This document shows positions 1 through 27,677 of a stretch of 32,000 nt of DNA, in pieces. The position numbers and the translations under genes were made by a program. Position 1 is the first letter of the stretch. Each line of letters begins with the position of its first letter. The notes below the pieces were generated by a model that worked only from the letters and a program-made list of their open reading frames with translations, was not told the DNA's origin and searched no databases. The DNA comes from Candidatus Arthromitus sp. SFB-rat-Yit (GTDB taxonomy: Bacteria; Bacillota; Clostridia; Clostridiales; Clostridiaceae), in NCBI RefSeq assembly GCF_000283555.1, contig NC_016012.1:1020001-1052000 (forward strand), read 5' to 3'.

Positions 1-915
1 ATCTGGATTATTAACTTTAACTTTAGGCGTTTCTTGTACGAAATTAACATTACCATCCTGATTCTTAACCATCTGCAATTTCAAACTACTAGTAGTAGTG
101 TTGCCTACTCCAGTTCCACTAGCAGCACTTCCACCTGAAACTGCACTACTTCCAGTGCTAGCATTTTGATCATTCACTTTAAGTTTATCTGCAATTTGCT
201 GAGCCTTCTGAATAATATCTGGATTATGAACCTTAACTTCAGGTATTTTTTCTACAAAATTAATACCACCGTCACCATTCTTAATCATTTCTAAGTTTAA
301 TCTTGAAGTATACAAGCTACTAATTCCACTCGATCCGCTAGCAATAGAACCTGTTTCTTGTGCTTTAGATTGCTGTGCATTTATTATATCTGCTCCAGTT
401 ATCCATCTTGGCTTTGATCTGTATATGTAACTTACTATTCGTCCAGTAGTAGGGTCTACGTATTTATCCCTTCCAACTTTCGTATCACTAAGGAATATTT
501 CAAAACGTGTCCCAAGATTTTTCTCATATGTTTTTAAAGTACCAGAGTCACTAACATATTGCGTATATTTTTTATTAGGATCGATAGGTCCAGTAGCTAC
601 AAAAGTATCCGCAGTTGCTCCAAATTTATGTTGAACCTTATGTGTTGGCAACACATTTTCTGGCTGCTGTACTATTCCACTAACATTTCTTACACTAACC
701 CTAGAAGAAGCAGCACTTACACCACTAACACTACTTGTACCACTAGCTATACTACTTGCACGACTTAAACTTCTTGCAAGTCCTGAAGCAACTCTACCAA
801 CCATAGCATTGGCCTTTTTACCGTCACCCAAATATAAAGACATGGCCGCAATTACCGATAATACATAAAGACTTCCACTATAAAGCCCGACATTTTTATT
901 ATTTCTAACACCCAT
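1..915 (-). CDS. Secreted Ser/Thr-rich surface protein, paralog A (N-terminal part only; the gene runs off the left edge)
   Basis: It is absent from the ORF track because no stop lies in the window. My hand translation of the reverse complement from ATG 915..913 (GGAGGAG at 921..927) stays open to base 1: MGVRNNKNVGLYSGSLYVLSVIAAMSLYLGDGKKANA/MVGRVASGLARSLS... The signal peptide and the later RLNLEMIKNGDGGINFVE...QQIADKLKV module are homologous to ORF 1118..3016. Confidence 0.75.
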   Translation of the reverse strand, partial: MGVRNNKNVGLYSGSLYVLSVIAAMSLYLGDGKKANAMVGRVASGLARSLSRASSIASGTSSVSGVSAASSRVSVRNVSGIVQQPENVLPTHKVQHKFGATADTFVATGPIDPNKKYTQYVSDSGTLKTYEKNLGTRFEIFLSDTKVGRDKYVDPTTGRIVSYIYRSKPRWITGADIINAQQSKAQETGSIASGSSGISSLYTSRLNLEMIKNGDGGINFVEKIPEVKVHNPDIIQKAQQIADKLKVNDQNASTGSSAVSGGSAASGTGVGNTTTSSLKLQMVKNQDGNVNFVQETPKVKVNNPD

Positions 916-991
916 GTATTCTCCTCCGTATTTATTTAATTAAAATCAAAAACAGCCTACCTATCTTTGTTTAATTCATTTTTTTGTAATA

Positions 992-1020
992 ATTATAACA
1001 TTTTTTTCTAAAAAGTTCAT
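992..1020 (-). promoter_or_regulatory. Candidate sigma-A promoter of paralog A (extended -10)
   Basis: The - strand reads ATGAAC, a 17-nt spacer ending in TGT, then TATAAT (TATAAT = 992..997, TG at 999..1000). The -35 is weak. The position relative to the start codon matches the equivalent elements of paralogs B and C. Confidence 0.4.
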
Positions 1021-1072
1021 CATTTTTTAATTTTTTATATAAATTTAATTCACATTCTAACAAAATAACTGT

Positions 1073-1099
1073 TAAAAAAAAAGAGATACAAAGATCTCT
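1073..1099 (-). terminator. Rho-independent terminator of paralog B
   Basis: The - strand reads AGAGAT-CTTTGT-ATCTCT followed by a T9 run, directly downstream of the stop at 1118. Confidence 0.7.
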
Positions 1100-1117
1100 T
1101 TTAAGATTTCACACTAA

Positions 1118-3016
1118 TTATTTAGCATATCTCCTATATTTACTTAATATTTGTTGAACTTCTTGACTATCAAATATTCCCTTATAATCTACACCATCTG
1201 AACCACTTGAACCTAATGAACCCCTTCTTGAATTCTGTCCTGATCCTCCTTCATCACCTTCAGGTATTGTTGCAAGACTTGGTCTGTATCCACCATCATC
1301 TACAGTGTCAAATTCTCGATTTTGTCTGCCCTTTGGTCTTGCTCCTTCTCTTCCGTCTGAAGAAGAACCTCCCGTACTTAAACCTGAACTTGAAGAGCTT
1401 GAGCTACTAGATGATGTTGTTGTAGTCGTGCTAGAAGTAGTACTTGTAGTTGACGTAGTTTTTGAGCTTGTACCACTAGAGCTTGAAGAACTTGAAGAAC
1501 CACCTATTTTAGTAACAGTTCTTGAGCTACTCGAACTTGTTTGTGGTGATGATAATTTAGGTCCTGATAATGTTGTAGTTGTTGTTGTAGATGATTTGCT
1601 GCTGTTTTTTAAAGATTCTTCAAGTGCCTTTTGAAGATTTGGATTAGAATCATCAGGATCCAATCCAGTAGGTGGAGCAGTTTTAGGTGCTTTAGTGTCA
1701 GGATTTTTAGTTTGAGCTGTCACTTGTTTTTCAGTACCATTAGGACCCTTTAAAGTTACTGTCACAGTTCCAGGAGTCGCACTCGAACTTGAACCAGTAA
1801 CAGTCGGCGTAGGAGTAGTTTTAGTGCTAGTTGTAACTGTTGTAGTTGCTCCACTACTGGAAGATGTAGTCGTTCCTGTTGAAGTTGTAGGCGAACTACT
1901 ACTTGTCCCTGTTCCAGTAGTTGGAGTCGTTGTTAATTTAGTTGCTCCTCTAGTAGGAGTCGAAGTTGTTTGTGGAGATGACAACTTTACACCACTTAAT
2001 GTGCCAGTAGCTGAACTTGTACCACCTGGACTAGTTGTGGTACTAGTTTTTGTACCTGTAGTAGAAGTTGTAGTTGTCCCTGAAGTACTAGTCGCTGTTG
2101 TAGTTGTCACTGTCGTAGTTGTCGATGATCCAGAACTTGTACTTGGTCCACTTGACGTTGTAGTAGTTGGTGTTGACGTACTAGAGGTTGAACTACCTTG
2201 TACTTTCAACTTGTTAGCAATCTGTTGACCCTGTTGAGTAACCTTCCCATCAAATTTAACCTTGTTTTGCTCTACAAATATAATTTTATCCCCATCTTTA
2301 GTCATGAGTAAATTCAACCTAGAAACATAGGCTTTAGTGCCACTTGAGCCTCCAGATCCAATACCACCACTTCCATCAACTCCGTCTTGATTATTTCCAG
2401 CACCGCCACTTGTTGCACTTGATGAGCTTAATCTGCTACCTGAACTTCCAGAAGCAGAAGTTGATGAACTTGATCCACTAGCACTTGTGCCAGAACTTGT
2501 CCCACTACCACTACCACTAGCACCAGTACTAGAACTAGTACCACTACCTACTTTATATGCAATCCTTTTAGGGGTTCCATCACTTCCAGTATATTTTAAA
2601 ACACCATATGTACCTGGTCCCCATGTCAATTTCTCCATAGCACTTGTTGGCTCTTTAGGTAATACTTTTACTGTTCCAGAACCATTAGCTCCTTCTTCAA
2701 AAAGTAAAACTAGTGTTTTAACCTTACCACCAGATACAGTGCCACCACCTACAGTTTGTTTAACTTTAAGACCTTGATTTACATTTGCAAGACTCGAAGT
2801 GCTACTAAGTCTAGCTTTATTAACAGCACCATTAATACTATCTCCAATTCCTCTAAATGCATTCACAACTTGGGAAGCAAGAGCACTAACCCTACTTCTA
2901 AGAGCAGCTTTAGCATTCTTACCTCCAACTACACACAAAGAAGTAGCGGTAACTAAAGATAACACACAAAGTTTACCGCTATATTTTACAACTTTCCCTT
3001 TATTTTTCACATCCAT
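1118..3016 (-). CDS. Mucin-like Ser/Thr-rich secreted surface protein, paralog B (632 aa)
   Basis: Long ORF with a 37-aa signal peptide, MDVKNKGKVVKYSGKLCVLSLVTATSLCVVGGKNAKA/A. It has a short folded-looking N-terminal region and the RLNLLMTKDGDKIIFVEQ...QQIANKLKV module. Hundreds of residues of S/T/G/P low complexity follow. No LPXTG motif and no C-terminal TM segment. Confidence 0.85.
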   Translation of the reverse strand: MDVKNKGKVVKYSGKLCVLSLVTATSLCVVGGKNAKAALRSRVSALASQVVNAFRGIGDSINGAVNKARLSSTSSLANVNQGLKVKQTVGGGTVSGGKVKTLVLLFEEGANGSGTVKVLPKEPTSAMEKLTWGPGTYGVLKYTGSDGTPKRIAYKVGSGTSSSTGASGSGSGTSSGTSASGSSSSTSASGSSGSRLSSSSATSGGAGNNQDGVDGSGGIGSGGSSGTKAYVSRLNLLMTKDGDKIIFVEQNKVKFDGKVTQQGQQIANKLKVQGSSTSSTSTPTTTTSSGPSTSSGSSTTTTVTTTTATSTSGTTTTSTTGTKTSTTTSPGGTSSATGTLSGVKLSSPQTTSTPTRGATKLTTTPTTGTGTSSSSPTTSTGTTTSSSSGATTTVTTSTKTTPTPTVTGSSSSATPGTVTVTLKGPNGTEKQVTAQTKNPDTKAPKTAPPTGLDPDDSNPNLQKALEESLKNSSKSSTTTTTTLSGPKLSSPQTSSSSSRTVTKIGGSSSSSSSSGTSSKTTSTTSTTSSTTTTTSSSSSSSSSSGLSTGGSSSDGREGARPKGRQNREFDTVDDGGYRPSLATIPEGDEGGSGQNSRRGSLGSSGSDGVDYKGIFDSQEVQQILSKYRRYAK

Positions 3017-3087
3017 GCACTAACTCTCCTTTTTAAAACAATTCAAAATTAACTTAAATCATAATTTATGTATATTTGATTCATTTT

Positions 3088-3117
3088 TATTTAACAATTG
3101 TACCATTATTTTTACAA
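3088..3117 (-). promoter_or_regulatory. Candidate promoter of paralog B
   Basis: The - strand reads TTGTAA (3117..3112), an 18-nt spacer ending in TGT, then TAAATA (3093..3088). It lies at the same distance from the start codon as in paralogs A and C. Weak on its own. Confidence 0.3.
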
Positions 3118-3162
3118 AATTTCATTATTTTTAAAATTTTTACTAAAATTTTCATGATCCCA

Positions 3163-3195
3163 TAAAAAAATTGATAGATATTAAAATCTATCAAT
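3163..3195 (-). terminator. Rho-independent terminator of paralog C
   Basis: The - strand reads ATTGATAGAT-TTTAAT-ATCTATCAAT followed by T7, just downstream of the stop at 3215. Confidence 0.75.
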
Positions 3196-3214
3196 CATAC
3201 ATACAAATCACTTA

Positions 3215-3905
3215 CTATCTATTAAAATATTTCGGTCTTGCACCTAGATTAGTAGTCGAATTACCTCCATTAATACCACTTACTACAGTAATAAGCATTC
3301 CCGTAGGACCAGAATCTACACTTGAAGGCATAGTTAAACTCTTTGGACCGCCATTAGTTGACGTAAACAAATCTTTATACTGACTTCCTGACCCACCTCT
3401 TGTCCAACCTCTACTAGTTAAACCACTTATTCCAGTTTGAGTATGACCCCATCCACCAAGTATAGATTTAGGTCCAGAATCTACACCTGTTACTGTGGCA
3501 CTCAAGTTTCCACCACTTCGAGTAAATCCATCATCTCTTAAAGGTTGTGGACCAAGACCAGTTCCATCATAAATGCTAGAGCCTTTACTTCCTGTCGACG
3601 ATCTTGTCCAATCAGACAAACTTGGATAACTTGGATCACCATTTTTATTTACACCTAAAATAGAATTAGGTCCTGATTGTTTCGAAAATCCTCCATCAAC
3701 TAATGTAAGACTTTTAGGTCGAATGCTAAATCTACCATTATTTACAAATAACTTGATTCCCGAAGTGAATCTAGGTCCGCTACTTGATAGCATAGCTTTA
3801 GTAGCTGACCCCCCCCGTCATAAATGACGAAACACACGCAACAACTGACAAAGCACAAAGATGACCACTATATTTTGCAAATCTTTTTCTGCTCTTTAAA
3901 CCCAT
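3215..3905 (-). pseudogene. Surface protein paralog C, frameshifted at a G8 tract (in frame with G7 or G10, giving 229 aa); phase-variable gene or pseudogene
   Basis: ATG 3905 (GGAG 8 nt upstream) encodes MGLKSRKRFAKYSGHLCALSVVACVSSFMTGG, then hits TAA three codons after the G8 run. Deleting one G joins it to the 192-aa ORF 3215..3793 through ...MTGGSATKA/MLSSSGPRF. That reproduces the 37-aa signal peptide of paralogs A and B. Confidence 0.8.
3809..3816 (-). repeat. G8 homopolymer (C8 on the + strand) inside the signal-peptide coding region
   Basis: Read directly as gacc ccccccgt at 3807..3818. It is the longest G/C run I found in the window; the next longest is C6 at 18855..18860. Confidence 0.95.
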
Positions 3906-3983
3906 AATTAATTCTCCATTTATCAAATAATTTTAAAACACATAACGTCATATCTTAAATGTTTGATTCATTATTTTGTTAAC

Positions 3984-4012: not shown

Positions 4013-4036
4013 TAAAAAAGAGAGGTCACCCCTCTC
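4012..4036 (-). terminator. Terminator of the aminotransferase operon
   Basis: The - strand reads GAGAGG-GGTGA-CCTCTC followed by TTTTTTATT, directly after the stop at 4045. Confidence 0.7.
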
Positions 4037-4044
4037 TCAATAAT

Positions 4045-5876: not shown

Positions 5877-6590
5877 ATGAATTACGATATGAAAAATCCC
5901 TATGACATTGCAAGATACATAAAAGATTCTAAAAAATCAACTCCTCTAAAAGTCTACCTAAAAGGGGATTTAACAGATAAAGATTTTGATAATTTAGAAT
6001 TCTACGGATCAAATGGAAATTACACTCTATTTGGTGAAAAAGAAGATATCCTTTCATTTTTATCTAAAAATCAATCCAAAATACACAAACATAGAATTGA
6101 AAATACAAAAAGAAATTCTGCAATTCCAATGTTAAACCTAATAGACATTGAAGCAAGAATTGAGCCTGGAGCAATAATACGTGACATGGTAACCATAGAA
6201 AAGAATTGTGTAATCATGATGGGAGCAGTTATAAATATAGGTGCAGAAATTGGGGAAGGTACAATGGTAGACATGAACGCTGTTGTTGGTGCTCGTGGAA
6301 AACTTGGGAAAAATGTACACCTAGGAGCTGGTGCTGTTGTGGCTGGAGTTCTCGAACCTCCATCAAAAGAACCATGTATAATAGAAGATAATGTTCTTAT
6401 AGGAGCTAATGCCGTAATACTAGAAGGAGTTCATGTGGGCAAAAACTCTGTAGTTGGTGCGGGTGCAATTGTAACAAATAATGTACCTCCAAACACAGTA
6501 GTAACTGGATCTCCTGCAAGAATTATTAAAGAAATTGACCAATCAGTTAAAGACAAAACTAAAATTTTAGAAGACTTACGAAGCCTCTAA
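5877..6590 (+). CDS. dapH: 2,3,4,5-tetrahydropyridine-2,6-dicarboxylate N-acetyltransferase
   Basis: 237 aa that I recall aligning along its full length with Bacillus DapH ([35 protein letters not shown]). It also has left-handed beta-helix hexapeptide repeats. Confidence 0.92.
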
Positions 6591-8920: not shown

Positions 8921-9802
8921 TTAACACCCATATATTCTAGATGGATCTTCTCCAATTTCTATAACTTCATTATTATGAGTATACAAATCATATTTTATTA
9001 AGACTTCCTTGTCACTTAATACAACATATAAAAACCTCCCATTTCTATAAACTCCACTAGGATTTCCATTTACATATATCCTCCCAATCTCTTTAAGTTC
9101 TGATAAATCTACTACACTCACACAATTTCCCAAATAGTTTGATACAAAAACACATCTCGATTCATAATCAATAAACATATCAATCGGTGCATTATTAAGC
9201 CTTATACTTTTATAATTTTGACCGCTATCAAAATCATAAATACTGAAATTTCCACTACTATTATCCCCAAATCTACTTTCACAAACAAAGATATATTTGC
9301 TATCTTTATAAAATTTTGAGTTCATTGGAAAACTATAAGTTCTAAATTTTTTTACAATATCATTGAGATTATAATCAATCACATTTATTTGATCACTTTT
9401 GGAACTCGTAACACAAAGCAATTTATGTTTATCATTTATGTCCATACTTTGCGGATAATTTCCACATTCAATTTGATAACATAAATATTTATTTCTCATA
9501 TCGTAAACCACAAGACAATTTGTATCGCTACCTATTAAATACATAGAATCATTTATAATTTTCAAATCATTCGTAAACATTCCAATATTCCAAACTTTAA
9601 TTCTCAATGTATTTACATCAATCTCATAAAAATTGTAACTATTGTTTGTTGCAATATAAACTTTATCATTAAAAAAATCAATACCATGTATGCCTATAAT
9701 TCTACTTTCATTTTCTAAATATATTTTTTGATGCAAATTATCTATTAAGTTAATCTTTGAAATATAATTTGATGATCCATTACAAATATAAAGATCATTC
9801 AT
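8921..9802 (-). CDS. YVTN/YncE-like beta-propeller repeat protein with no signal peptide
   Basis: It contains repeated blades of about 40 aa (e.g. NCVSVVDLSELKEIGRIYVNGNPSGV, NCLVVYDMRNKYLCYQIECGNYPQSM). Start taken at ATG 9802, after AAAGGAAAG. Confidence 0.6.
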   Translation of the reverse strand: MNDLYICNGSSNYISKINLIDNLHQKIYLENESRIIGIHGIDFFNDKVYIATNNSYNFYEIDVNTLRIKVWNIGMFTNDLKIINDSMYLIGSDTNCLVVYDMRNKYLCYQIECGNYPQSMDINDKHKLLCVTSSKSDQINVIDYNLNDIVKKFRTYSFPMNSKFYKDSKYIFVCESRFGDNSSGNFSIYDFDSGQNYKSIRLNNAPIDMFIDYESRCVFVSNYLGNCVSVVDLSELKEIGRIYVNGNPSGVYRNGRFLYVVLSDKEVLIKYDLYTHNNEVIEIGEDPSRIYGC

Positions 9803-9879
9803 AAACTTTCCTTTCAATAATTACTCAATACTTCATGATATTCAAGAAACAATTTATTTCCAAACGTTTTTTAATTGAT

Positions 9880-17765: not shown

Positions 17766-18851
17766 TTAAATTTTCAATCCTAGTTCATTCATCAATCTTA
17801 CATATTCTTCACAAATTAACATCTGTTTTAAAACATCTTGGCGTGATGTCCTTTTAACTTCACTAACCCAATATTTCTTACCATCCTCATCTGGGTCACG
17901 ATTCAGTATAACTCTATAAACTCTGTTTATAAACTCACCATTAGACATTAATTTATTTTGAAATTCAATGCCCTCAACGATATTTACAATCAATGTACTT
18001 GGTGACAATGTTTTATTGATTAATGCTTGTACATTATTTTTCAACTCCGTAGTAGTTGGATTTCTTTTCAGTAAACTACTATAAATGTTCATTACAAATT
18101 CTTCTATAATATCCTTGGTACTAAAATTATATAGAAATGTTTTATTAATTTTTTTAATGGAAACACCATCCAATTCATTTTGAAATAACAAACTTAAGTT
18201 AAATTTTAAAGGCTGATCAGACGGAAATCCATCAAGATATATGTACACGTATTGTTTAAGTTCTTCAGATACCACAACATATTTTATTTCAAAAGTCGTA
18301 CTAGAATTGGTCACTAACTCTGGATACACAAGTACAGATTGTACACTTTTAAGCATATCCCAAGGGTCATCTATTTCAACCGCTAAAACTATTTGATTTT
18401 GGTTATAATATAGGAGTCTTGGCTCTCCAATAACACTCGAAGATCTAAAATTTTCATTTTTGGCACTTAACGTTGCAATTTCTTTTATACTCTCTTGTGA
18501 CCTATTTACAACGAAATTCACACCTAATTTTACATTATCCATATCATAAGATTTTGTATTTTGGTTAATAATTATAATGTATTTATTTTCAGAAATCTGA
18601 TATGTACTAACAGGCGTAATCTTATTATCAACTTCGATGAAGAACTCTTTAATAACTCCATCTACTTTTTTCTCAACATCCACACTAAATATAAATCTAT
18701 TTTTACCAGATAACTCTTCTAGAAACTTAGTCTTAACAATAACATCCTTGCTATCAATTGCATTTGCTTTTGTTCCACAAACTAGAGCAAATAGTACTAC
18801 GAACATAGACATAAATAAAGTAAATAATTTATGTTTACATTTAAACAACAA
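17766..18851 (-). CDS. Secreted protein with a C-terminal tandem DUF4214 pair
   Basis: Signal peptide ...FVVLFALVCGTKANA/IDSKD. The C-terminus is FVMNIYSSLLKRNPTTTE...RVYRVILNRDPDEDGKKYWVSEV...EEYVRLMNELGLKI, homologous to the C-terminus of the 1471-aa protein. TTG start after a G6 RBS. Confidence 0.75.
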   Translation of the reverse strand: MLFKCKHKLFTLFMSMFVVLFALVCGTKANAIDSKDVIVKTKFLEELSGKNRFIFSVDVEKKVDGVIKEFFIEVDNKITPVSTYQISENKYIIIINQNTKSYDMDNVKLGVNFVVNRSQESIKEIATLSAKNENFRSSSVIGEPRLLYYNQNQIVLAVEIDDPWDMLKSVQSVLVYPELVTNSSTTFEIKYVVVSEELKQYVYIYLDGFPSDQPLKFNLSLLFQNELDGVSIKKINKTFLYNFSTKDIIEEFVMNIYSSLLKRNPTTTELKNNVQALINKTLSPSTLIVNIVEGIEFQNKLMSNGEFINRVYRVILNRDPDEDGKKYWVSEVKRTSRQDVLKQMLICEEYVRLMNELGLKI

Positions 18852-20731: not shown

Positions 20732-20769
20732 TTACTTAACAATTCTCTTTTAAGGTAAGGGTGATTATT

Positions 20770-21093
20770 ATGAATAACTCAAACAAAAATAATACTAAAG
20801 ATATCACTAAGAAAGCCGTAGCTATTGGAACTGCACTCGGTGTAGTTGCAACCCTCGGAGCAAACCTAAATGTTAAAGAAGCTGGAGCTCGCACTCGTAA
20901 CACTAAACCAAATAAAGAATCTAGAGTAAACTCAGACAAGAAATTTTCGTACACTAAAAGACCTTGGACAAATGTAGATAAAGCAAATGCTCAAAGTTCA
21001 GAAGGATACGCAGCAAAAAATAAAGAAGAACGAAAAACTTCTAGTAATAGAAAAATAAGAGTTCCTGTTAGCGTTTCGACTGCAAGAAGATAG
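20770..21093 (+). CDS. Small basic exported protein, family member P1 (107 aa)
   Basis: MNNSNKNNTKDITKKAVAIGTALGVVATLGANLNVKEAGA/RTRN..., ending RVPVSVSTARR. It starts 38 nt after the upstream stop with no hairpin between, so it is probably co-transcribed. Confidence 0.7.
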   Translation: MNNSNKNNTKDITKKAVAIGTALGVVATLGANLNVKEAGARTRNTKPNKESRVNSDKKFSYTKRPWTNVDKANAQSSEGYAAKNKEERKTSSNRKIRVPVSVSTARR

Positions 21094-21102
21094 TTTATAT
21101 AA

Positions 21103-21139
21103 GGGGATACCTCTTCGAGGTTTCCCTATTTTCTTTTTT
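21103..21139 (+). terminator. Terminator after P1 (part of the 730-bp repeat unit)
   Basis: GGGGATACCTC-TTC-GAGGTTTCCCT (one T-T mismatch) followed by ATTTTCTTTTTT. Confidence 0.6.
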
Positions 21140-21268
21140 GTCAATTAATTTTAAATTTTTTTGCAACTTAAATATAAATTTTCCTTTTACCTCACCGAAA
21201 TATATGATTGTAAAGCTTATAACAAAAATTTTTATAGGATTGTTTTTCAAACAAGGAGGTATTTTATA

Positions 21269-21823
21269 ATGAGTAATTCATCTAAAAAAAATAATAAGAA
21301 AGATATCGCTAAAAAGGCTGTAGCCCTTGGTGCTGCTCTTGGTGTTGTTGCTGGTATCGGTGCTACTATGGGTGGTGGTGCTGAAGAAGCTCATGCTGCT
21401 AGAAGACCTTCCCAATCTTCTACTACAACTACTAACTCTGAACAAAGTACAACTACTACTAAAAGACCTTCTTCTAACGCTTCATCTGCAAATACTACAG
21501 GAACTTCTTCTAGAACTACAAGAAGTTCAGCTAACAGAAAAGTTTCTGCTAAGGTAGCTGATGCTAAAACTACTACAGATACTACTACAGAGGATACAAC
21601 AACTAGTACAAGTACTGGAAGAAGATCTACTACTTCAACTTCAAGTACTGGAAGAACTACAACTAACAAACAAGAAGATGCTAAGAAGTCTACTTCTCAC
21701 TCTTCTGTAAGTTCTAAAAGGTCTAAGTCTAAAGCTCAACAAAATAAAGATATGGCTTCAAGGTCTTCATCAACTGAGAAAACAAATAAAGTCGTTGTTA
21801 GCGTTTCAACTGCAAGAAAGTAG
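21269..21823 (+). CDS. Small basic Ser/Thr-rich exported protein, family member P2 (184 aa)
   Basis: ATG 21269 lies after AAGGAGG. MSNSSKKNNKKDIAKKAVALGAALGVVAGIGATMGGGAEEAHA/ARRP..., ending KVVVSVSTARK. The ORF-track extension back to 21161 has no RBS support. Confidence 0.8.
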   Translation: MSNSSKKNNKKDIAKKAVALGAALGVVAGIGATMGGGAEEAHAARRPSQSSTTTTNSEQSTTTTKRPSSNASSANTTGTSSRTTRSSANRKVSAKVADAKTTTDTTTEDTTTSTSTGRRSTTSTSSTGRTTTNKQEDAKKSTSHSSVSSKRSKSKAQQNKDMASRSSSTEKTNKVVVSVSTARK

Positions 21824-21832
21824 TTTATATAA

Positions 21833-21869
21833 GGGGATACCTCTTCGAGGTTTCCCTATTTTCTTTTTT
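21833..21869 (+). terminator. Terminator after P2 (copy of 21103..21139)
   Basis: The sequence is identical to 21103..21139 at offset 730. Confidence 0.6.
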
Positions 21870-21998
21870 GTCAATTAATTTTAAATTTTTTTGCAACTTA
21901 AATATAAATTTTCCTTTTACCTCACCGAAATATATGATTGTAAAGCTTATAACAAAAATTTTTATAGGATTGTTTTTCAAACAAGGAGGTATTTTATA

Positions 21999-22553
21999 AT
22001 GAGTAATTCATCTAAAAAAAATAATAAGAAAGATATCGCTAAAAAGGCTGTAGCCCTTGGTGCTGCTCTTGGTGTTGTTGCTGGTATCGGTGCTACTATG
22101 GGTGGTGGTGCTGAAGAAGCTCATGCTGCTAGAAGACCTTCCCAATCTTCTACTACAACTACTAACTCTGAACAAAGTACAACTACTACTAAAAGACCTT
22201 CTTCTAACGCTTCATCTGCAAATACTACAGGAACTTCTTCTAGAACTACAAGAAGTTCAGCTAACAGAAAGGTTTCTGCTAAGGTAGCTGATGCTAAAAC
22301 TACTACAGATACTACTACAGAAGAGGCAACAACTAGTACAAGTACTGGAAGAAGATCTACTACTTCAACTTCAAGTACTGGAAGAACTACAACTAACAAA
22401 CAAGAAGATGCTAAGAAGTCTACTTCTCACTCTTCTGTAAGTTCTAAAAGGTCTAAGTCTAAAGCTCAACAAAATAAAGATATGGCTTCAAGGTCTTCAT
22501 CAACTGAGAAAACAAATAAAGTCGTTGTTAGCGTTTCAACTGCAAGAAAATAA
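21999..22553 (+). CDS. Small basic Ser/Thr-rich exported protein, family member P3 (184 aa, duplicate of P2)
   Basis: It differs from P2 by two residues (TEDTT versus TEEAT) and has the same RBS and start context. Confidence 0.8.
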   Translation: MSNSSKKNNKKDIAKKAVALGAALGVVAGIGATMGGGAEEAHAARRPSQSSTTTTNSEQSTTTTKRPSSNASSANTTGTSSRTTRSSANRKVSAKVADAKTTTDTTTEEATTSTSTGRRSTTSTSSTGRTTTNKQEDAKKSTSHSSVSSKRSKSKAQQNKDMASRSSSTEKTNKVVVSVSTARK

Positions 22554-22559
22554 TTTAAT

Positions 22560-22581
22560 GGACACTGAAAAGTGTCCTTTT
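22560..22581 (+). terminator. Terminator after P3
   Basis: GGACACT-GAAA-AGTGTCC followed by TTTT. Confidence 0.65.
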
Positions 22582-22625
22582 AATATAATGTAACGGATTT
22601 TCTAAACATGGAGGTGTATTTAGAA

Positions 22626-23174
22626 GTGTCTAATAAAAAGAATAAAAAAGAAATAGCTAAAAAGGCTGTTGCCTTAGGTGCTGCTCTTGGAGTTGTCGCT
22701 GGTATAGGTGCTAGCATAGGGGGAGGAGCTGAAGAGGCTCATGCTGCTAGTAGAACATCCCAAACAAGATCAACCAGAAATACAAACACTTCAACTTCTA
22801 CATCAAAAAGACCAACATCAAATGCTAAGACAAGCGTATCAAAAGAAAATAGTGAAACAGAAAGCAAATCAAACCAAAACTCTAGAAATTATAGAAGCAA
22901 ATTAAGCTCAACTTCAAGGAGTGGTAGTGAAGACGAATCTTCAAATAGAAGAAGAAGTAAAGCTAAAGTAATATCAAATTCTAATGCTGAAGTTGAGAAT
23001 GAACAAAATGATGAAAATACTACATCAAAAAGACCTACCCCTAAATCATATAAAAGTATAGATGATAAGAAACAAAACTCAAAAGCAATAGTCGATGGGA
23101 GTAGATCATCTGCATCAACAGATGAAAGTTCATCAGGCAATAAAATTATAGTCAGAATATCAACAAAGAAATAA
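22626..23174 (+). CDS. Small basic exported protein, family member P4 (182 aa)
   Basis: A GTG start at 22626, 11 nt after GGAGG (22610..22614), gives (M)SNKKNKKEIAKKAVALGAALGVVAGIGASIGGGAEEAHA/ASRT, which is collinear with P1 to P3. The protein ends KIIVRISTKK. Confidence 0.7.
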   Translation: MSNKKNKKEIAKKAVALGAALGVVAGIGASIGGGAEEAHAASRTSQTRSTRNTNTSTSTSKRPTSNAKTSVSKENSETESKSNQNSRNYRSKLSSTSRSGSEDESSNRRRSKAKVISNSNAEVENEQNDENTTSKRPTPKSYKSIDDKKQNSKAIVDGSRSSASTDESSSGNKIIVRISTKK

Positions 23175-23261: not shown

Positions 23262-26200
23262 TTAATATTTTAATCCCATTCCAACTACCATTTTCATAAA
23301 TTCTTCTTCATTAATCATTCTATCCACCACGTGTTTCTTTGCATTAAATACATCTCCATTTGCATTTACAAGTGATTCATTGTTGTAAAAATCTATCCAG
23401 AATCTCAAACCTTCCTCATCCGGATCTCTATCAACAACTATAGAATAAAGTATTTCAATTAATTTATCTGTGGTATATTCAAGTTCTGAAAACTCTTTTT
23501 CCGCAAACAATAAATTAATCAAAAAATCTCTTGCTCCTATATCTTGATTATTTAATCTATTAATCCAATAATCATAACCAAGTTCGTCAGGGGCTCTTAA
23601 GAATGCTCTATCATACACATTGTATAAAAATGATTGCCTAGGATTCTCAGCTTCGAGGATTATATTTTGTATATTAAATATAATCTCCTTCCCTTCTTCT
23701 ACTACAATTCTAACCTCTATTGAAGGATATTCCTTACCTGGCACAAGTCCTTCAACTCCAATATTTCCATCTTCATTAATTCGAGCAGATATTCCATCTA
23801 TATCACATAATATATCCATCTCTTCTGTCAAACTTATATCTCCGAGATCAGGAATAGGAAATGCAAATTGATTACCTATTCCATCAAATCTTTCAATTTC
23901 AACAGGTTGCTCAAAAATTGTTTCATCTACAGGTTCATTCTTAATAATTTTCTCAACATAAAATTCTGTTTTGCCTGCACCTATTGTAAATTTCTCTGTA
24001 ACAGGTTCTATCATAACAATATAATCTGTATCATCAGTTAAAAATTGATCTAAATTAAAACTTGTAACTGAAATTATATCTGATTCAATAGTATGAATTT
24101 TTACATATTCATCCCCAATTACAATATCAGATTCTTTCTTTTCGTTTGAGGAATCCTCATTTTCTTCACCCTGTTCTGCCTTTTTAACTGTCTTCAAATA
24201 AATGTTTAACTTATCTCCTTCTAAAAACTTTGTATTCTCTCCATAAGACCACTTAAGATCAAACGTACTTTTAGTAAATTCATCTTCATATTTCTCGCCC
24301 TCTTCAACAGTTGGCTTAATTCCTCTATACTCAAGTTCAAAATCTACAAAATAAACTTCATTAAAATATCCATGTGGATTGTAAGAAATCAACAAATCAT
24401 AATCTTTTGTATTATCTGGAATCGTACACTCAAAATCAAATATTTCATTACGACTACCACTAAATATAGAATCACTATTATACTGTTTATGATCTGCCAA
24501 TTTATAGAAAGTATCAACATATATATCTAAATAATCCATAACCACCATATCATTACCAAAATCAGTTTTTATTCTAAGTGTGTTACCTTTCATGGAATCT
24601 ATCCTACAATTACTAAATTCTAATTTCTTTGTTCTAAACTGCATTGTTTTATCTTCAATATCATTTGCTTTCGTTTTATACGTAAGAAGAACATCATAAT
24701 CCATATCTGGCAATACAGGAAGTATATTAAATTTCGTTAAATCTTCTAACTTATTACTCTCACCATGGAATGAAATTATATTAGGTTCTTTAGGATACTT
24801 ATTATCACTTCGCTTCTTTACATATATTTCTACATAATCTCCATTTGCAAATATATAATCTTGTGGAGCTGCAATATTTAAAATTGCATAATACTCTGTC
24901 GTACTTTCTAATTTTATAGACGCATCTGCATGCGTTGTTTTAAATTCCACAGTCTTTTCAAATTTAACATTACTTATTGTGTAAACAAGCTTAGCTGTAT
25001 AATCCATATCCATATAAGTTACAGTCCCATCACCTTTAAACACTCCGCTAACCTCAGAACCAACTTTTGAAAATGAAGATCCTGCAGGATATCCATTAAC
25101 AATCTTTCTTTTAATATAAATCTCAACTTTATCTTTCTCATCAAAAGTCGTAGGTTCTCCAGATACTTTCCACTCAAAACTTACACTATTTGGTCTAATT
25201 GACGTTGTTTTAAATTCATCTATAGTAAATGAGCTAGTTTTCTGATTTTCAAATGTCTTTTCTAAAGTTTTTCTTTCTTCTGTATTTCTAACACTATATT
25301 TTTTATTAGAGCTTGAAGGTTCTTCTTCTGTTTCCTCTGTTTTTCCTGTTTCTTCAGATGAACCTCCACCTTCTACTGTTCCAGTATTTCCACTATCTTC
25401 TGAACCTTCTGTTCCAGTAGACACATCTTCACTATCTTCTGTTTCTTCTTCATCACCTTCTTCCTCTTCACTGCTGCTATCATCAGATCCTTCACCATTT
25501 TCTTGATTGTCATCACCATTTGAACCATTTCCGTCAGATAAATCTCCATTGCTTCCCGAATCTTCTCCACCTGATTCTGTTCCTCCTCCAGTCGAACCAC
25601 CTCCAGTATCAGATCCGCTTCCAGATCCTCCACTACTACCGTCACCACTTCCAGATTCAATTATAGTATCTTTATCCTTTAGCTCATTTTTTGTCTTAAA
25701 CTCAATCTTAAAATCATATTCTTTCTCTGGAATTAGGTATCCAATGCTCACCTCTTTTATATTTTTCAAATCAATTTGGTTTTCTCCATTACTAGCATGG
25801 ATGTACTCTTTATCAGGCTCACTAGAAAAATTCTTTGCAGAACCATTTCTAAGTTTTTTAAATAATCTTATACTGTCACCTTCTTCAAACGTAAAATCTT
25901 CAGAATACTCAAGCTGAAATATAACTTCATTAACTTTTTTATCTTTAATAGAAACTTTTACCGTATTATTTTGATTGTTAGCTTCCCCAGTATTATTTGT
26001 TTCACCGTTTGAATATGATGTACCTTCAGATTGTGTTCTAACAAGTGCATTATTTTTTAAATCACCATAGCTTACATATTCTTTTCCATCTATATCATAA
26101 ACAAATTTAAAATCATATTCTTTGTTTATATCTCTCCCCAAATTTAAAATACAAGATCCCAATCTGCTTAAATCTCTATTTGCATAAAATTGCGAATCAT

Positions 26201-27677
26201 TTGGATATTCCGAATCATTCTTTTCTTTAATAAAAACTTTTAATGAATCATTACTCCCAAATCTAAAATTAGGCTCAGTTATTTCCCATCTAAGTTTAAC
26301 ATTTAAATTTCCATCACTATCAACTATAGGCTTGGCACTAATATTTTTAATTTCAAATGGAAGAGTTCTGAAAGTTTCATTTTTAATTATCAAAGATTCA
26401 TCATATGAATTTAAAATTTCATAATCAATACTATATTCTGTATTCGTTTTCAAATTTTTATAATCAACACTATTTCCCTGAATTTGATCTTTTAAATCTA
26501 TAGACCTAACTTTCTTTCTGGATAATTTATCATCCTTCTCCTCAATATAAATGTTTAACCTATCCCCGGATTTAAAATTTAAATTTTTAATGAAATCAAA
26601 TTGTATAAATAAATCTCTTAAATTTTTTATCTTAATATCCGTATTAAGATTATAACAATCATTAGTCTGACCTATCTCTTTTTCAATAACTCCATCTCCA
26701 AACTTATAAGCAAGCTTTATATCATAAATAGGGGATAATTCTTTTAATTCAATAACAGTTGAGTTAACCTTTTCATCATTTATTCTAATATCTGGATCAA
26801 CTGAATAATTTATATCACCCTTACCTTTGATATAAATATTAATTGAATCATTATTGATAAATTTAAAATTATTTGATGTGACATCCCATTTTAATTCAAG
26901 CTGATTATTATTAATCATTTTTGAACTCATATCCAAAATATCAAAATCTTTAGTCTTTATATGCTTATCAAATACTAAATTAACATTATCCTTTAAATTA
27001 ATGACATATCTGATATCATATGTGGTAGATGGATGTAACGAAATATTATTAAACTTAAAAATATTTCTGAGATTATTTATTTCCTTCTTTGATTTCTTTA
27101 TATGAAAGTCAAATCTATCTTCTTTACCTTCATCTCCAAATTTTTTACCATAAAGCTCAATTCCATTTATAAAAATCAGATTCTTTTTATCATATTTAAA
27201 CATAACATCACAAGTATTAATTCCAATATTATTAACGTCAAAACTATTGTTTAAATATTTAAACTTCGAAACTTGATTAATTGTTTTAAATGATGATCTA
27301 TCAATTAATGAAATTTTTATCTCATACCCAGTACCATCTTCTAACTTGTCATATATAAAAAATCGTTTATCAATTTCATTAATTTTAATTTCATTTCCAG
27401 AAATCAAATCTTTTAAACTAACTTTATTAATTTCATATCCAAATGCATCATCTACTACAATTTCAACAAAATTTCCACTCTCAACTATGTAAATAGGAAC
27501 ATCTATTTTATCCAGTGTATAACTTACTTTAATGCATAAATTCAAACACAATATTACAAAAAAAACAAACCTAATCATCATTTTAAATAAACTCTTCACA
27601 CAAACTAACCCCCTACCGAATTTATTAAAAGCATAGATATTAGTTTTAAAAATTTTTAATAATTTATTCATATTCAC
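23262..27677 (-). CDS. Giant exported repeat protein: about 8 Fn3-like repeats, an acidic G/S/D/E spacer and a C-terminal tandem DUF4214 pair
   Basis: The longest ORF is 1471 aa. The probable real start is GTG 27599, 9 nt after AGGGGG, giving MKSLFKMMIRFVFFVILCLNLCIKV. Repeats of about 100 aa are delimited by F-[KR]-T and carry [LF]x[WF]...F..GD.[IL].[IV]Y[IV]K and a tyrosine-corner-like YD[FIVL]x[LIF]xY. The C-terminus is YDRAFLRAPDELGYDYWINRL...VVDRDPDEEGLRFWIDF. Confidence 0.85.
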   Translation of the reverse strand: MNMNKLLKIFKTNIYAFNKFGRGLVCVKSLFKMMIRFVFFVILCLNLCIKVSYTLDKIDVPIYIVESGNFVEIVVDDAFGYEINKVSLKDLISGNEIKINEIDKRFFIYDKLEDGTGYEIKISLIDRSSFKTINQVSKFKYLNNSFDVNNIGINTCDVMFKYDKKNLIFINGIELYGKKFGDEGKEDRFDFHIKKSKKEINNLRNIFKFNNISLHPSTTYDIRYVINLKDNVNLVFDKHIKTKDFDILDMSSKMINNNQLELKWDVTSNNFKFINNDSINIYIKGKGDINYSVDPDIRINDEKVNSTVIELKELSPIYDIKLAYKFGDGVIEKEIGQTNDCYNLNTDIKIKNLRDLFIQFDFIKNLNFKSGDRLNIYIEEKDDKLSRKKVRSIDLKDQIQGNSVDYKNLKTNTEYSIDYEILNSYDESLIIKNETFRTLPFEIKNISAKPIVDSDGNLNVKLRWEITEPNFRFGSNDSLKVFIKEKNDSEYPNDSQFYANRDLSRLGSCILNLGRDINKEYDFKFVYDIDGKEYVSYGDLKNNALVRTQSEGTSYSNGETNNTGEANNQNNTVKVSIKDKKVNEVIFQLEYSEDFTFEEGDSIRLFKKLRNGSAKNFSSEPDKEYIHASNGENQIDLKNIKEVSIGYLIPEKEYDFKIEFKTKNELKDKDTIIESGSGDGSSGGSGSGSDTGGGSTGGGTESGGEDSGSNGDLSDGNGSNGDDNQENGEGSDDSSSEEEEGDEEETEDSEDVSTGTEGSEDSGNTGTVEGGGSSEETGKTEETEEEPSSSNKKYSVRNTEERKTLEKTFENQKTSSFTIDEFKTTSIRPNSVSFEWKVSGEPTTFDEKDKVEIYIKRKIVNGYPAGSSFSKVGSEVSGVFKGDGTVTYMDMDYTAKLVYTISNVKFEKTVEFKTTHADASIKLESTTEYYAILNIAAPQDYIFANGDYVEIYVKKRSDNKYPKEPNIISFHGESNKLEDLTKFNILPVLPDMDYDVLLTYKTKANDIEDKTMQFRTKKLEFSNCRIDSMKGNTLRIKTDFGNDMVVMDYLDIYVDTFYKLADHKQYNSDSIFSGSRNEIFDFECTIPDNTKDYDLLISYNPHGYFNEVYFVDFELEYRGIKPTVEEGEKYEDEFTKSTFDLKWSYGENTKFLEGDKLNIYLKTVKKAEQGEENEDSSNEKKESDIVIGDEYVKIHTIESDIISVTSFNLDQFLTDDTDYIVMIEPVTEKFTIGAGKTEFYVEKIIKNEPVDETIFEQPVEIERFDGIGNQFAFPIPDLGDISLTEEMDILCDIDGISARINEDGNIGVEGLVPGKEYPSIEVRIVVEEGKEIIFNIQNIILEAENPRQSFLYNVYDRAFLRAPDELGYDYWINRLNNQDIGARDFLINLLFAEKEFSELEYTTDKLIEILYSIVVDRDPDEEGLRFWIDFYNNESLVNANGDVFNAKKHVVDRMINEEEFMKMVVGMGLKY

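What the first reader, a model, noticed from the sequence alone, without database searches (positions are those of the whole stretch)
3791..3905. G8 homopolymer interrupts a surface-protein gene at the conserved Gly-Gly of its signal peptide: candidate slipped-strand ON/OFF switch
On the - strand, ATG 3905 encodes MGLKSRKRFAKYSGHLCALSVVACVSSFMT, followed by a run of 8 G (3816..3809). As written, the frame ends three codons later (VSY-stop). With 7 G (or 10) it reads ...MTGGSATKA/MLSSSGPRF and fuses to the 192-aa ORF 3215..3793. That reproduces the 37-aa length and the GG-x-x-A-x-A ending of paralogs A (LGDGKKANA) and B (VVGGKNAKA). The paralogs encode these residues with mixed codons (gac ggt, gga ggt), and only this copy uses a homopolymer. 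A G/C run of 8 stands out in DNA this AT-rich. Together this matches a contingency locus controlling a surface antigen. The trivial alternatives are a fixed pseudogene or a homopolymer basecalling error.
Basis: partly seen in the sequence, partly recalled or inferred. Interest (0 to 1): 0.8.

Follow-up and report, generated by a model that had tools for sequence, protein, structure and literature searches.

The report
Poly-G frameshift in rat-SFB secreted-protein gene
A run of eight G's breaks the reading frame of a small secreted-protein gene in the rat gut symbiont SFB, and its length differs between two strains (8 versus 9, both "off"); it is therefore a credible but unproven slipped-strand on/off switch that could equally be a decaying pseudogene.

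Summary
The window comes from Candidatus Arthromitus sp. SFB-rat-Yit. On the - strand, a G8 run (3816..3809) sits at codons 30-33 of an ORF that starts at ATG 3905. G7 or G10 fuses a 37-aa signal peptide to the annotated 192-aa ORF (BAK81459.1). The fused N-terminus aligns without gaps to the conserved signal peptides of the neighbouring paralogs.

A second rat-SFB strain (SRR19621095, 99.86% identical) carries G9. This is one of only two indels in 19.6 kb, so the tract really is unstable. Both trustworthy assemblies are out of frame.

The only in-frame (G7) allele on record comes from an assembly of the same strain (DRR001117). That assembly also shortens three other long homopolymers, breaking two otherwise intact genes, so it is probably a sequencing artefact.

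Context weakens the adaptive reading. The mouse-SFB ortholog is a shortened, frame-broken remnant with no repeat. A third lineage lacks the gene. A neighbouring mouse paralog is inactivated by ordinary mutations. No other G/C run of 8 or more occurs in about 100 kb of SFB DNA.

Verdict: a hypermutable poly-G tract that toggles a strain-restricted secreted protein (confidence about 0.5). The main rival is a drifting pseudogene (about 0.35). The mechanism is textbook; it would be new only for SFB.

The parts
4018..4038 (-). Intrinsic terminator of the upstream aminotransferase gene. It isolates the target gene as its own transcription unit.
   Evidence: 8-bp stem with 4 G-C pairs, followed by a T run
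3930..3958 (-). Promoter-like site: TTAAGA, 17-nt spacer, TAAAAT.
   Evidence: consensus match only, 9/12. Identical in strain SRR19621095; the nearest SNP is at 3978.
3914..3917 (-). Shine-Dalgarno GGAG, 8 nt upstream of the ATG.
   Evidence: Read directly from the sequence.
3794..3905 (-). Signal-peptide coding segment (37 codons once one G is removed). The n-region has net charge +5. The h-region is LCALSVVACVSSFM. The c-region is TGGSATKA, with predicted cleavage after TKA.
   Evidence: ungapped alignment with 9 family members. No signal-peptide predictor was available.
3809..3816 (-). Poly-G tract (G8 here), spanning codons 30-33. It is G9 in strain SRR19621095 and G7 in the error-prone DRR001117 assembly.
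3798..3800 (-). TAA stop of the 35-aa product made in the G8 state. It lies 4 nt upstream of ATG 3793.
3215..3793 (-). 192-aa ORF, annotated as hypothetical protein BAK81459.1 / WP_014094919.1. It equals the predicted mature protein. It is rich in Gly, Ser and Thr, and has no Pfam family and no confident fold.
3163..3196 (-). AT-rich hairpin (11-bp stem) plus a T run. Likely the terminator of the target gene.
   Evidence: MFE -17.3 kcal/mol, z = -2.9, 0 of 200 shuffles fold as well
1118..3016 (-). Paralog B: 632 aa, intact, with the same signal-peptide family.
1..938 (-). Paralog A, 5' part. The gene runs off the window. It is 737 aa in this strain and 740 aa in SRR19621095.

Best explanation
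The gene is a small, rat-SFB-restricted member of a tandem family of SFB-specific secreted proteins. Its signal-peptide coding region contains a hypermutable poly-G tract. Slipped-strand mispairing during replication changes the tract length by one base at a time. G7 or G10 gives a 229- or 230-aa preprotein that is exported and cleaved after TKA. G8 gives a 35-aa peptide and G9 a 58-aa peptide, so no secreted protein is made in either state. The population therefore contains ON and OFF cells, and the consensus in both sequenced strains happens to be OFF.

Shown: the tract, its frame consequences, its fit to the family signal peptide, and an inter-strain length difference.

Inferred: within-population switching, export, and any benefit such as escape from host IgA or T-cell recognition.
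For: - G7 and G10 restore the ORF.
- The repaired N-terminus aligns without gaps with 9 family members.
- Tract length is G8 in the reference and G9 in an independent strain. This is one of only 2 indels, against 27 SNPs, in 19.6 kb. All other homopolymers of 8 nt or more agree between the two assemblies.
- The promoter-like site, Shine-Dalgarno sequence, ATG, 192-codon ORF and terminator are intact in both strains.
- ACG-GGG-GGG is an improbable codon choice, about 0.0015 given the amino acids. None of 31 Gly-Gly pairs is GGG-GGG.
- It is the only G/C run of 8 or more in the window plus about 67 kb of other SFB lineages.
- Family genes B and the target carry 7 non-synonymous and 0 synonymous SNPs, against 7 non-synonymous and 11 synonymous in the other genes (Fisher p = 0.008).
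- Poly-G/C tracts of about 9 nt are roughly ten times more variable than poly-A/T tracts across prokaryotes (PMC3315296).
Against: - No reliable ON allele exists. The G7 allele comes from an assembly that shortens other long homopolymers by one base and breaks two otherwise intact genes.
- Both reliable strains are OFF.
- The mouse-SFB ortholog is a shortened, frame-broken remnant without any repeat, fixed in 10 samples. The L005 lineage lacks the gene.
- A neighbouring mouse paralog is knocked out by an ordinary 1-nt deletion or a nonsense codon.
- No second tract of this kind was seen.
- Divergence between the two rat strains is too low to test selection on the ORF; 3 non-synonymous and 0 synonymous changes also fit neutrality.
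- A run of G8 or longer arises in 8% of shuffled windows.
Confidence: 0.5

Rival explanations
1. Plain pseudogene. A dispensable, recently duplicated family member was inactivated by a +1 slip in a chance G7 run. The dead tract now drifts in length (G8, G9) with no functional ON state under selection.
For: - Both reliable assemblies are out of frame, in two different frames.
- The ortholog has decayed in mouse SFB and is absent from the L005 lineage. The array size varies from 1 to 5 genes among lineages.
- Mouse gene 1 is inactivated independently by a frameshift and by a nonsense mutation.
- The mature domain has no homologs among 1.84 billion cluster-representative proteins.
- All 3 SNPs in the ORF are non-synonymous.
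- Tract variability is intrinsic to poly-G and needs no selection.
Against: - There is no second lesion in either strain. The promoter-like site, Shine-Dalgarno sequence, signal peptide, 192-codon ORF and terminator are all intact.
- The intact paralog B shows the same all-non-synonymous pattern, so that pattern does not indicate gene death.
- Because the tract changes on the timescale of 0.14% divergence, in-frame revertants must arise often. Mechanistically the gene still switches.
- The codon choice that built the tract is unusual.
Confidence: 0.35
2. Homopolymer error in the deposited genome. The true tract is G7, and the gene is simply intact.
For: An assembly of reads from the same strain (DRR001117) gives G7 and the exact 229-aa protein.
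Against: - That assembly differs from the reference only at homopolymers, and always by -1. The changes are A9 to A8, A7 to A6 (breaking a DUF4214 gene that is intact in the reference and in the other strain), and A10 to A9 (breaking paralog A).
- The reference agrees with the independent strain at every other long homopolymer.
- The independent strain is also out of frame, at G9.
Confidence: 0.08
3. Programmed recoding or reinitiation. The out-of-frame gene is expressed through transcriptional slippage or ribosomal frameshifting on the G run. Alternatively, in the G8 state, the ribosome terminates at TAA 3800..3798 and reinitiates 4 nt downstream at ATG 3793, producing a leaderless form.
For: Homopolymers of 8 nt or more can support RNA-polymerase slippage (general knowledge, not tested here). 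In the G8 state the stop codon and ATG 3793 are 4 nt apart.
Against: - Programmed recoding predicts a conserved out-of-frame tract length, but the two strains need opposite corrections (G8 versus G9).
- No RNA family or structure was detected.
- No proper Shine-Dalgarno sequence precedes ATG 3793; the G run ends 15 nt upstream.
- In the G9 state the upstream ORF overlaps the ATG.
Confidence: 0.05

Closest known systems
Poly-G/C contingency genes of Campylobacter jejuni, and homopolymer-controlled genes of Helicobacter pylori and Neisseria
   Same: An intragenic G/C homopolymer of 8-10 nt lies in AT-rich DNA. Changes of one base toggle translation of a surface-associated product. Tract length differs between strains.
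   Different: Those genomes carry tens of such tracts, and switching has been measured experimentally (for example PMC8437040 and PMC5084427, listed). Here only one tract is seen in about 100 kb of SFB DNA, no ON allele is verified, and nothing has been measured.
Neisseria opa (CTCTT repeats) and H. pylori oipA/hopZ (CT repeats), located in the signal-peptide coding region
   Same: The repeat sits inside the signal-peptide coding segment, so the mature protein sequence is unaffected by the ON length. (Recalled from general knowledge, not tested here.)
   Different: Those repeats are penta- or dinucleotide units in Gram-negative outer-membrane proteins and are present in many paralogs. Here it is a mononucleotide run in one paralog of a Gram-positive, SFB-specific family with no sequence relationship to them.
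Homopolymer-tract phase variants in Gram-positive or high-GC bacteria (M. tuberculosis ESX-1 tracts, PMC11898584; Paenibacillus flagellar hotspot, PMC9941203)
   Same: Single homopolymer hotspots generate reversible loss-of-function variants in genomes that are not rich in contingency loci.
   Different: The genes and organisms are different, and reversibility was shown there. These papers appeared only in the search listing and were not read in detail.
Frameshifted pseudogenes in reduced genomes
   Same: A single indel in a homopolymer disrupts a lineage-restricted gene whose orthologs elsewhere are decayed or missing.
   Different: There is only one lesion, at a tract that still changes length between near-identical strains. 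The rest of the transcription unit is intact.

Membership tests
SSR (slipped-strand) phase-variable contingency locus | Simple-sequence repeat inside the ORF or promoter, with length above the instability threshold (G/C of 7-8 or more) | tested here: met
   G8 at 3816..3809, at codons 30-33
SSR (slipped-strand) phase-variable contingency locus | Repeat-length change switches between full-length and truncated translation | tested here: met
   G7 and G10 give 229 or 230 aa. G8 gives 35 aa. G6 and G9 give a different short product.
SSR (slipped-strand) phase-variable contingency locus | Tract length polymorphic among strains | tested here: met
   G8 in the reference versus G9 in SRR19621095. The other long homopolymers are identical. 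Only two independent strains were available.
SSR (slipped-strand) phase-variable contingency locus | Both ON and OFF alleles occur in nature | tested here: inconclusive
   The only ON allele (G7, P0002/L002) is from DRR001117, an assembly of the same strain that shortens 3 of 8 homopolymers of 7 nt or more in the window, plus an A10 outside it.
SSR (slipped-strand) phase-variable contingency locus | High-frequency, reversible switching within a clonal population | not testable with these tools
   Needs raw reads or amplicon deep sequencing. Only consensus assemblies are available.
SSR (slipped-strand) phase-variable contingency locus | Product is surface-exposed or interacts with the host, and is functional when ON | tested here: inconclusive
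   The signal peptide with an AxA-type site is inferred from the family alignment. The mature domain has no Pfam family, no homologs and no confident fold.
SSR (slipped-strand) phase-variable contingency locus | Several such loci per genome (typical, not strictly defining) | tested here: not met
   There is no other G/C run of 8 or more in the 32-kb window or in about 67 kb from four other SFB lineages. The paralogs use mixed codons. The whole genome was not available.
SFB-specific tandem secreted-protein family (downstream of the aminotransferase) | Conserved 37-aa N-terminus of the form M-x-[VF]-[KR]-N-K-...-Y-[SG]-G-x-L-[CY]-x-L-S-...-A-x-A, located in the syntenic array | tested here: met
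   Ungapped alignment with rat A and B, the L005 564- and 740-aa genes, and mouse genes 1-5. Synteny is shown.
Pseudogene | A disabling mutation together with further lesions or relaxed constraint | tested here: inconclusive
   There is one lesion only, in both rat strains. The 3 non-synonymous and 0 synonymous SNPs match the pattern in intact paralog B. The mouse ortholog is degraded and the L005 lineage lacks the gene.
Programmed transcriptional slippage or ribosomal frameshift | The out-of-frame relation between the two ORFs is conserved among relatives | tested here: not met
   G8 is +1 and G9 is +2 relative to the in-frame G7, so the two strains would need different corrections. There is no Rfam hit.

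The most novel reading that the evidence does not exclude
The tract acts as a three-state switch rather than a two-state one. G7 or G10 gives a secreted protein. G8 makes the ribosome terminate at TAA 3800..3798 and reinitiate 4 nt downstream at ATG 3793. That ATG is exactly the first residue of the predicted mature protein, so the product would be a leaderless, cell-retained form. G9 gives no product. SFB would then vary both the presence and the location of a host-exposed antigen. This would be the first contingency locus described in this Th17/IgA-inducing symbiont.
Probability: 0.05. Interest if true: 0.7.

Novelty: new member of a known kind. Interest (0 to 1): 0.4.

Why it matters
SFB are the best-studied commensal inducers of intestinal Th17 cells and IgA. 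They attach to the epithelium and cannot be manipulated genetically. The full-text searches found no paper linking SFB with phase variation or simple-sequence contingency loci.

If the tract does switch a secreted or surface protein on and off, it would show that SFB diversify antigen expression stochastically within a host. That bears on host specificity and on how a heavily IgA-coated symbiont persists.

If it is only a pseudogene, the locus still documents rapid birth, diversification and death of an SFB-specific secreted-protein array. The array holds 1 to 5 copies across lineages, and inter-strain changes in the family are all non-synonymous.

Tried and rejected
- **Tract-flank pattern scans.** A pattern with a variable gap across the tract found nothing in genome contigs or metagenome contigs. 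A 32-mer from the ORF also found nothing in metagenome contigs. No further rat-SFB instances are available there.
- **The search for related loci with the aminotransferase** in genome contigs returned only an unrelated Desulfobacteraceae hit. Synteny was instead obtained through protein hits and the look-up of encoding contigs.
- **Homolog searches for the mature domain.** The word-indexed search found only its own cluster. The exhaustive phmmer search added one hit, a 2025-aa Actinoallomurus protein (E = 1.7e-6). I judge it spurious because the match is a short stretch in low-complexity sequence from an unrelated phylum.
- **Pfam** gave nothing for the target, A, B or the mouse members.
- **AlphaFold** without an alignment gave pLDDT 35, which is unusable, so no fold search was run.
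- **Self-BLAST for internal repeats** gave no significant hit.
- **The G7 allele as proof of an ON state** was considered and rejected after DRR001117 showed systematic one-base homopolymer shortening.
- **Sequencing technology of DRR001117 and SRR19621095** could not be established. The Prakash 2011 genome paper is not held, and the run accessions appear in no paper. That DRR001117 is 454 data is my inference from the error pattern.
- **Lipoprotein reading.** V-V-A-C at residues 21-24 resembles a lipobox, but the Cys is not conserved in the paralogs, so I did not adopt this reading.

Full report
**1. What is in the sequence**

The window is from Candidatus Arthromitus sp. SFB-rat-Yit. The 192-aa ORF 3215..3793 (- strand) is identical to BAK81459.1 / WP_014094919.1, annotated as a hypothetical protein.

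Reading the - strand, the locus has these features in order:
- the aminotransferase terminator at 4038..4018;
- a promoter-like TTAAGA-17-TAAAAT at 3958..3930;
- GGAG at 3917..3914, followed by an 8-nt spacer;
- ATG at 3905;
- 29 further codons, then ACG at 3818..3816;
- the G run at 3816..3809.

As written, the frame reads GGVSY and stops at TAA 3800..3798. Removing one G or adding two fuses the ORF to 3215..3793, giving 229 or 230 aa. G6 and G9 give a different short product.

An 11-bp hairpin plus a T run at about 3196..3163 follows the ORF (z = -2.9, 0 of 200 shuffles fold as well). The gene is therefore a self-contained transcription unit. No Rfam family matches the region.

**2. Is it more than chance?**

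The tract is the only G/C run of 7 or more in the 32-kb window. Composition alone is not decisive, because 8 of 100 dinucleotide-preserving shuffles contain a run of G8 or longer.

The placement and the coding are more telling. The repaired N-terminus aligns without a gap to rat paralogs A and B and to seven members from two other SFB lineages. It has the family's 37-aa length and its G-x-x-A-x-A end. The paralogs use GAC GGT or GGA GGT at this position.

In the window's 24 genes, GGG makes up 11% of Gly codons and ACG 12% of Thr codons. None of the 31 Gly-Gly pairs is GGG-GGG. ACG-GGG-GGG therefore has a probability of about 0.0015 given the amino acids.

In about 67 kb of other SFB lineages, only one G7 run and no run of G8 or longer occurs.

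**3. Tract length in other data**

The protein collection holds just three members of this cluster.

*(a) SRR19621095 (L001, L004, L019).* This is a different rat-SFB strain. It has 27 SNPs over 19.6 kb and only two indels: T6 to T7 at 6588, and G8 to G9 at the tract. The five other homopolymers of 8 nt or more in the shared region are identical. Both assemblies therefore look reliable, and the G8/G9 difference is probably real. Both lengths are out of frame.

*(b) DRR001117 (L002, L020, L024).* This assembly has G7 and encodes the exact 229-aa repaired protein. However:
- It is the same strain as the window, with 0 mismatches in 13.9 kb.
- Its only differences from the window are one-base shortenings of homopolymers. 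These are A9 to A8 at 1074, G8 to G7 at the tract, and A7 to A6 at 18149. The last splits a DUF4214 gene that is intact in the reference and in the other strain.
- Outside the window it also has A10 to A9 in paralog A, splitting it into 574 + 142 aa.
- In total, three of the eight runs of 7 nt or more in the covered 14.9 kb are affected.

This is the signature of a homopolymer-undercalling data set. I infer pyrosequencing, but I could not verify the technology. The G7 allele is therefore not evidence for a natural ON state.

No further instances were found in the genome or metagenome collections.

**4. Evolutionary context**

The genes downstream of the aminotransferase form a tandem array of SFB-specific proteins that share the signal peptide. 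The array size differs by lineage:

| Lineage | Locus | Identity of aminotransferase to the window's (%) | Family genes |
|---|---|---|---|
| GCA_964271565.1 | L021 | 80 | 1 |
| SRR15970527 lineage | L005 | 92 | 2 |
| Rat SFB | window, L001 | 100 | 3 |
| Mouse SFB | L009-L018 | 87 | 5 |

The L005 lineage has no counterpart of the target gene.

In mouse SFB the counterpart is a 39-aa signal-peptide ORF followed, in another frame, by a 71-aa ORF. The latter matches rat residues 171-225 at 43-44% identity. It is much shorter than the rat gene, contains no repeat tract, and is the same in all 10 samples. It looks like a deletion-derived remnant.

The first mouse gene of the array is intact (158 aa) in one sample. 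It is broken by a 1-nt deletion in one clade and by a nonsense codon in another. Its 90% cluster holds products of 50 to 158 aa.

So members of this array are repeatedly lost by ordinary mutations.

The mature domain of the target has no homolog among 1.84 billion cluster-representative proteins, apart from its own cluster and a spurious actinobacterial hit. It has no Pfam family and no confident fold.

Between the two rat strains, family genes B (4 SNPs) and the target (3 SNPs) carry only non-synonymous changes. The other genes carry 7 non-synonymous and 11 synonymous changes (Fisher p = 0.008). This indicates diversifying or relaxed evolution of the family. It does not separate the target from its intact paralog.

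**5. Mechanism and rivals**

*Best-supported reading (confidence 0.5).* A hypermutable poly-G tract in the signal-peptide coding region toggles a secreted protein by slipped-strand mispairing, and the consensus in both strains is OFF. The tract changed length within 0.14% divergence. Poly-G/C runs of about 9 nt are roughly ten times more variable than poly-A/T runs across prokaryotes (PMC3315296). In-frame variants must therefore arise frequently. What is unproven is that the ON product is made, exported or selected.

*Main rival (0.35).* A drifting pseudogene. It is supported by the two OFF consensus states, the decayed or absent orthologs, and the ordinary knock-outs in the family.

*Reference error (0.08).* This is unlikely, for the reasons given in section 3.

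*Programmed recoding or reinitiation (0.05).* The two strains would need different frame corrections, which argues against it. One curiosity remains: in the G8 state the stop codon lies 4 nt before ATG 3793, and that ATG is the first residue of the predicted mature protein.

**6. Comparison with known systems and novelty**

Functionally this matches classical simple-sequence contingency loci. These include the poly-G genes of Campylobacter, and the repeats in signal-peptide coding regions of Neisseria opa and H. pylori oipA/hopZ (the latter two from general knowledge).

Membership is incomplete. The repeat, the frame logic and the inter-strain polymorphism are met. ON alleles and surface function are inconclusive. 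Within-population switching is untestable here. The typical multiplicity of such loci is not seen.

I found no literature linking SFB with phase variation.

It is best filed as a new candidate member of a known kind, of moderate interest (0.4). The decisive test is per-read tract-length counting in raw or amplicon data, with A/T homopolymers as error controls.

Noticed in passing
L001 10590-10599 (paralog A, just beyond window position 1); L024 around 1781: Paralog A carries an A10 run inside its coding sequence. The DRR001117 assembly has A9 there, which splits A into 574 + 142 aa. This is probably a read artefact, but it is another slippage-prone tract in a family gene.
   Followed up: partly
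L001 10291-10299 versus L024 1482: There is a 9-nt in-frame indel (GACTGATCA) in paralog A between the two rat-SFB strains (740 versus 737 aa).
   Followed up: partly
L009 9355-9990, L014 and L016 at the same region (mouse SFB): The first family gene after the aminotransferase is intact (158 aa) in one mouse-SFB sample. It is frameshifted by a 1-nt deletion (GCGCCGC to GCGCGC) in one clade and stopped by a nonsense codon in another. Its 90% cluster holds products of 50 to 158 aa across many samples.
   Followed up: partly
L009 10059-10405 (mouse SFB): The mouse counterpart of the target gene is a 39-aa signal-peptide ORF followed by a 71-aa ORF in another frame. About 78 codons remain open. 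Among the three mouse loci translated (L009, L014, L016) I saw 2 amino-acid differences and, reading the variable sites by eye, about 3 silent ones. This is odd for an old pseudogene and remains unexplained.
   Followed up: partly
L021 11332-13608; L005 9319-13439; window 1-3905; L009 9355-16538: The copy number of the secreted-protein array downstream of the aminotransferase varies from 1 to 5 among SFB lineages. The flanking genes (DUF218, DSBA, CobO, DapH) are conserved.
   Followed up: partly
window 20761-23174, with the 730-bp tandem duplication at 21040-22500: A second tandem family of small Ser/Thr-rich secreted proteins has a signal peptide of the type KKAVALGAALGVVAGIGA...AEEAHA. Two copies (21161-21823 and 21891-22553) are nearly identical. 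Each has an A8 run (21284-21291 and 22014-22021) in its lysine-rich N-terminal coding region.
   Followed up: no
window 9336-9338: Three adjacent substitutions separate the two rat strains (TTA versus GGG on the - strand). They lie in the beta-propeller-like gene 8921-9817 and look like a single multi-nucleotide event.
   Followed up: no
window 17766-18851 and 23262-27677: These are large DUF4214-type proteins, which Pamp et al. [quoted passage not shown] The window therefore holds three different families of SFB-specific exported proteins.
   Followed up: no
L021 14634-14640: An in-frame G7 run lies near the 3' end of the DUF218 gene in another SFB lineage. It is the only other G/C run of 7 or more seen in about 67 kb of non-rat SFB DNA.
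   Followed up: no
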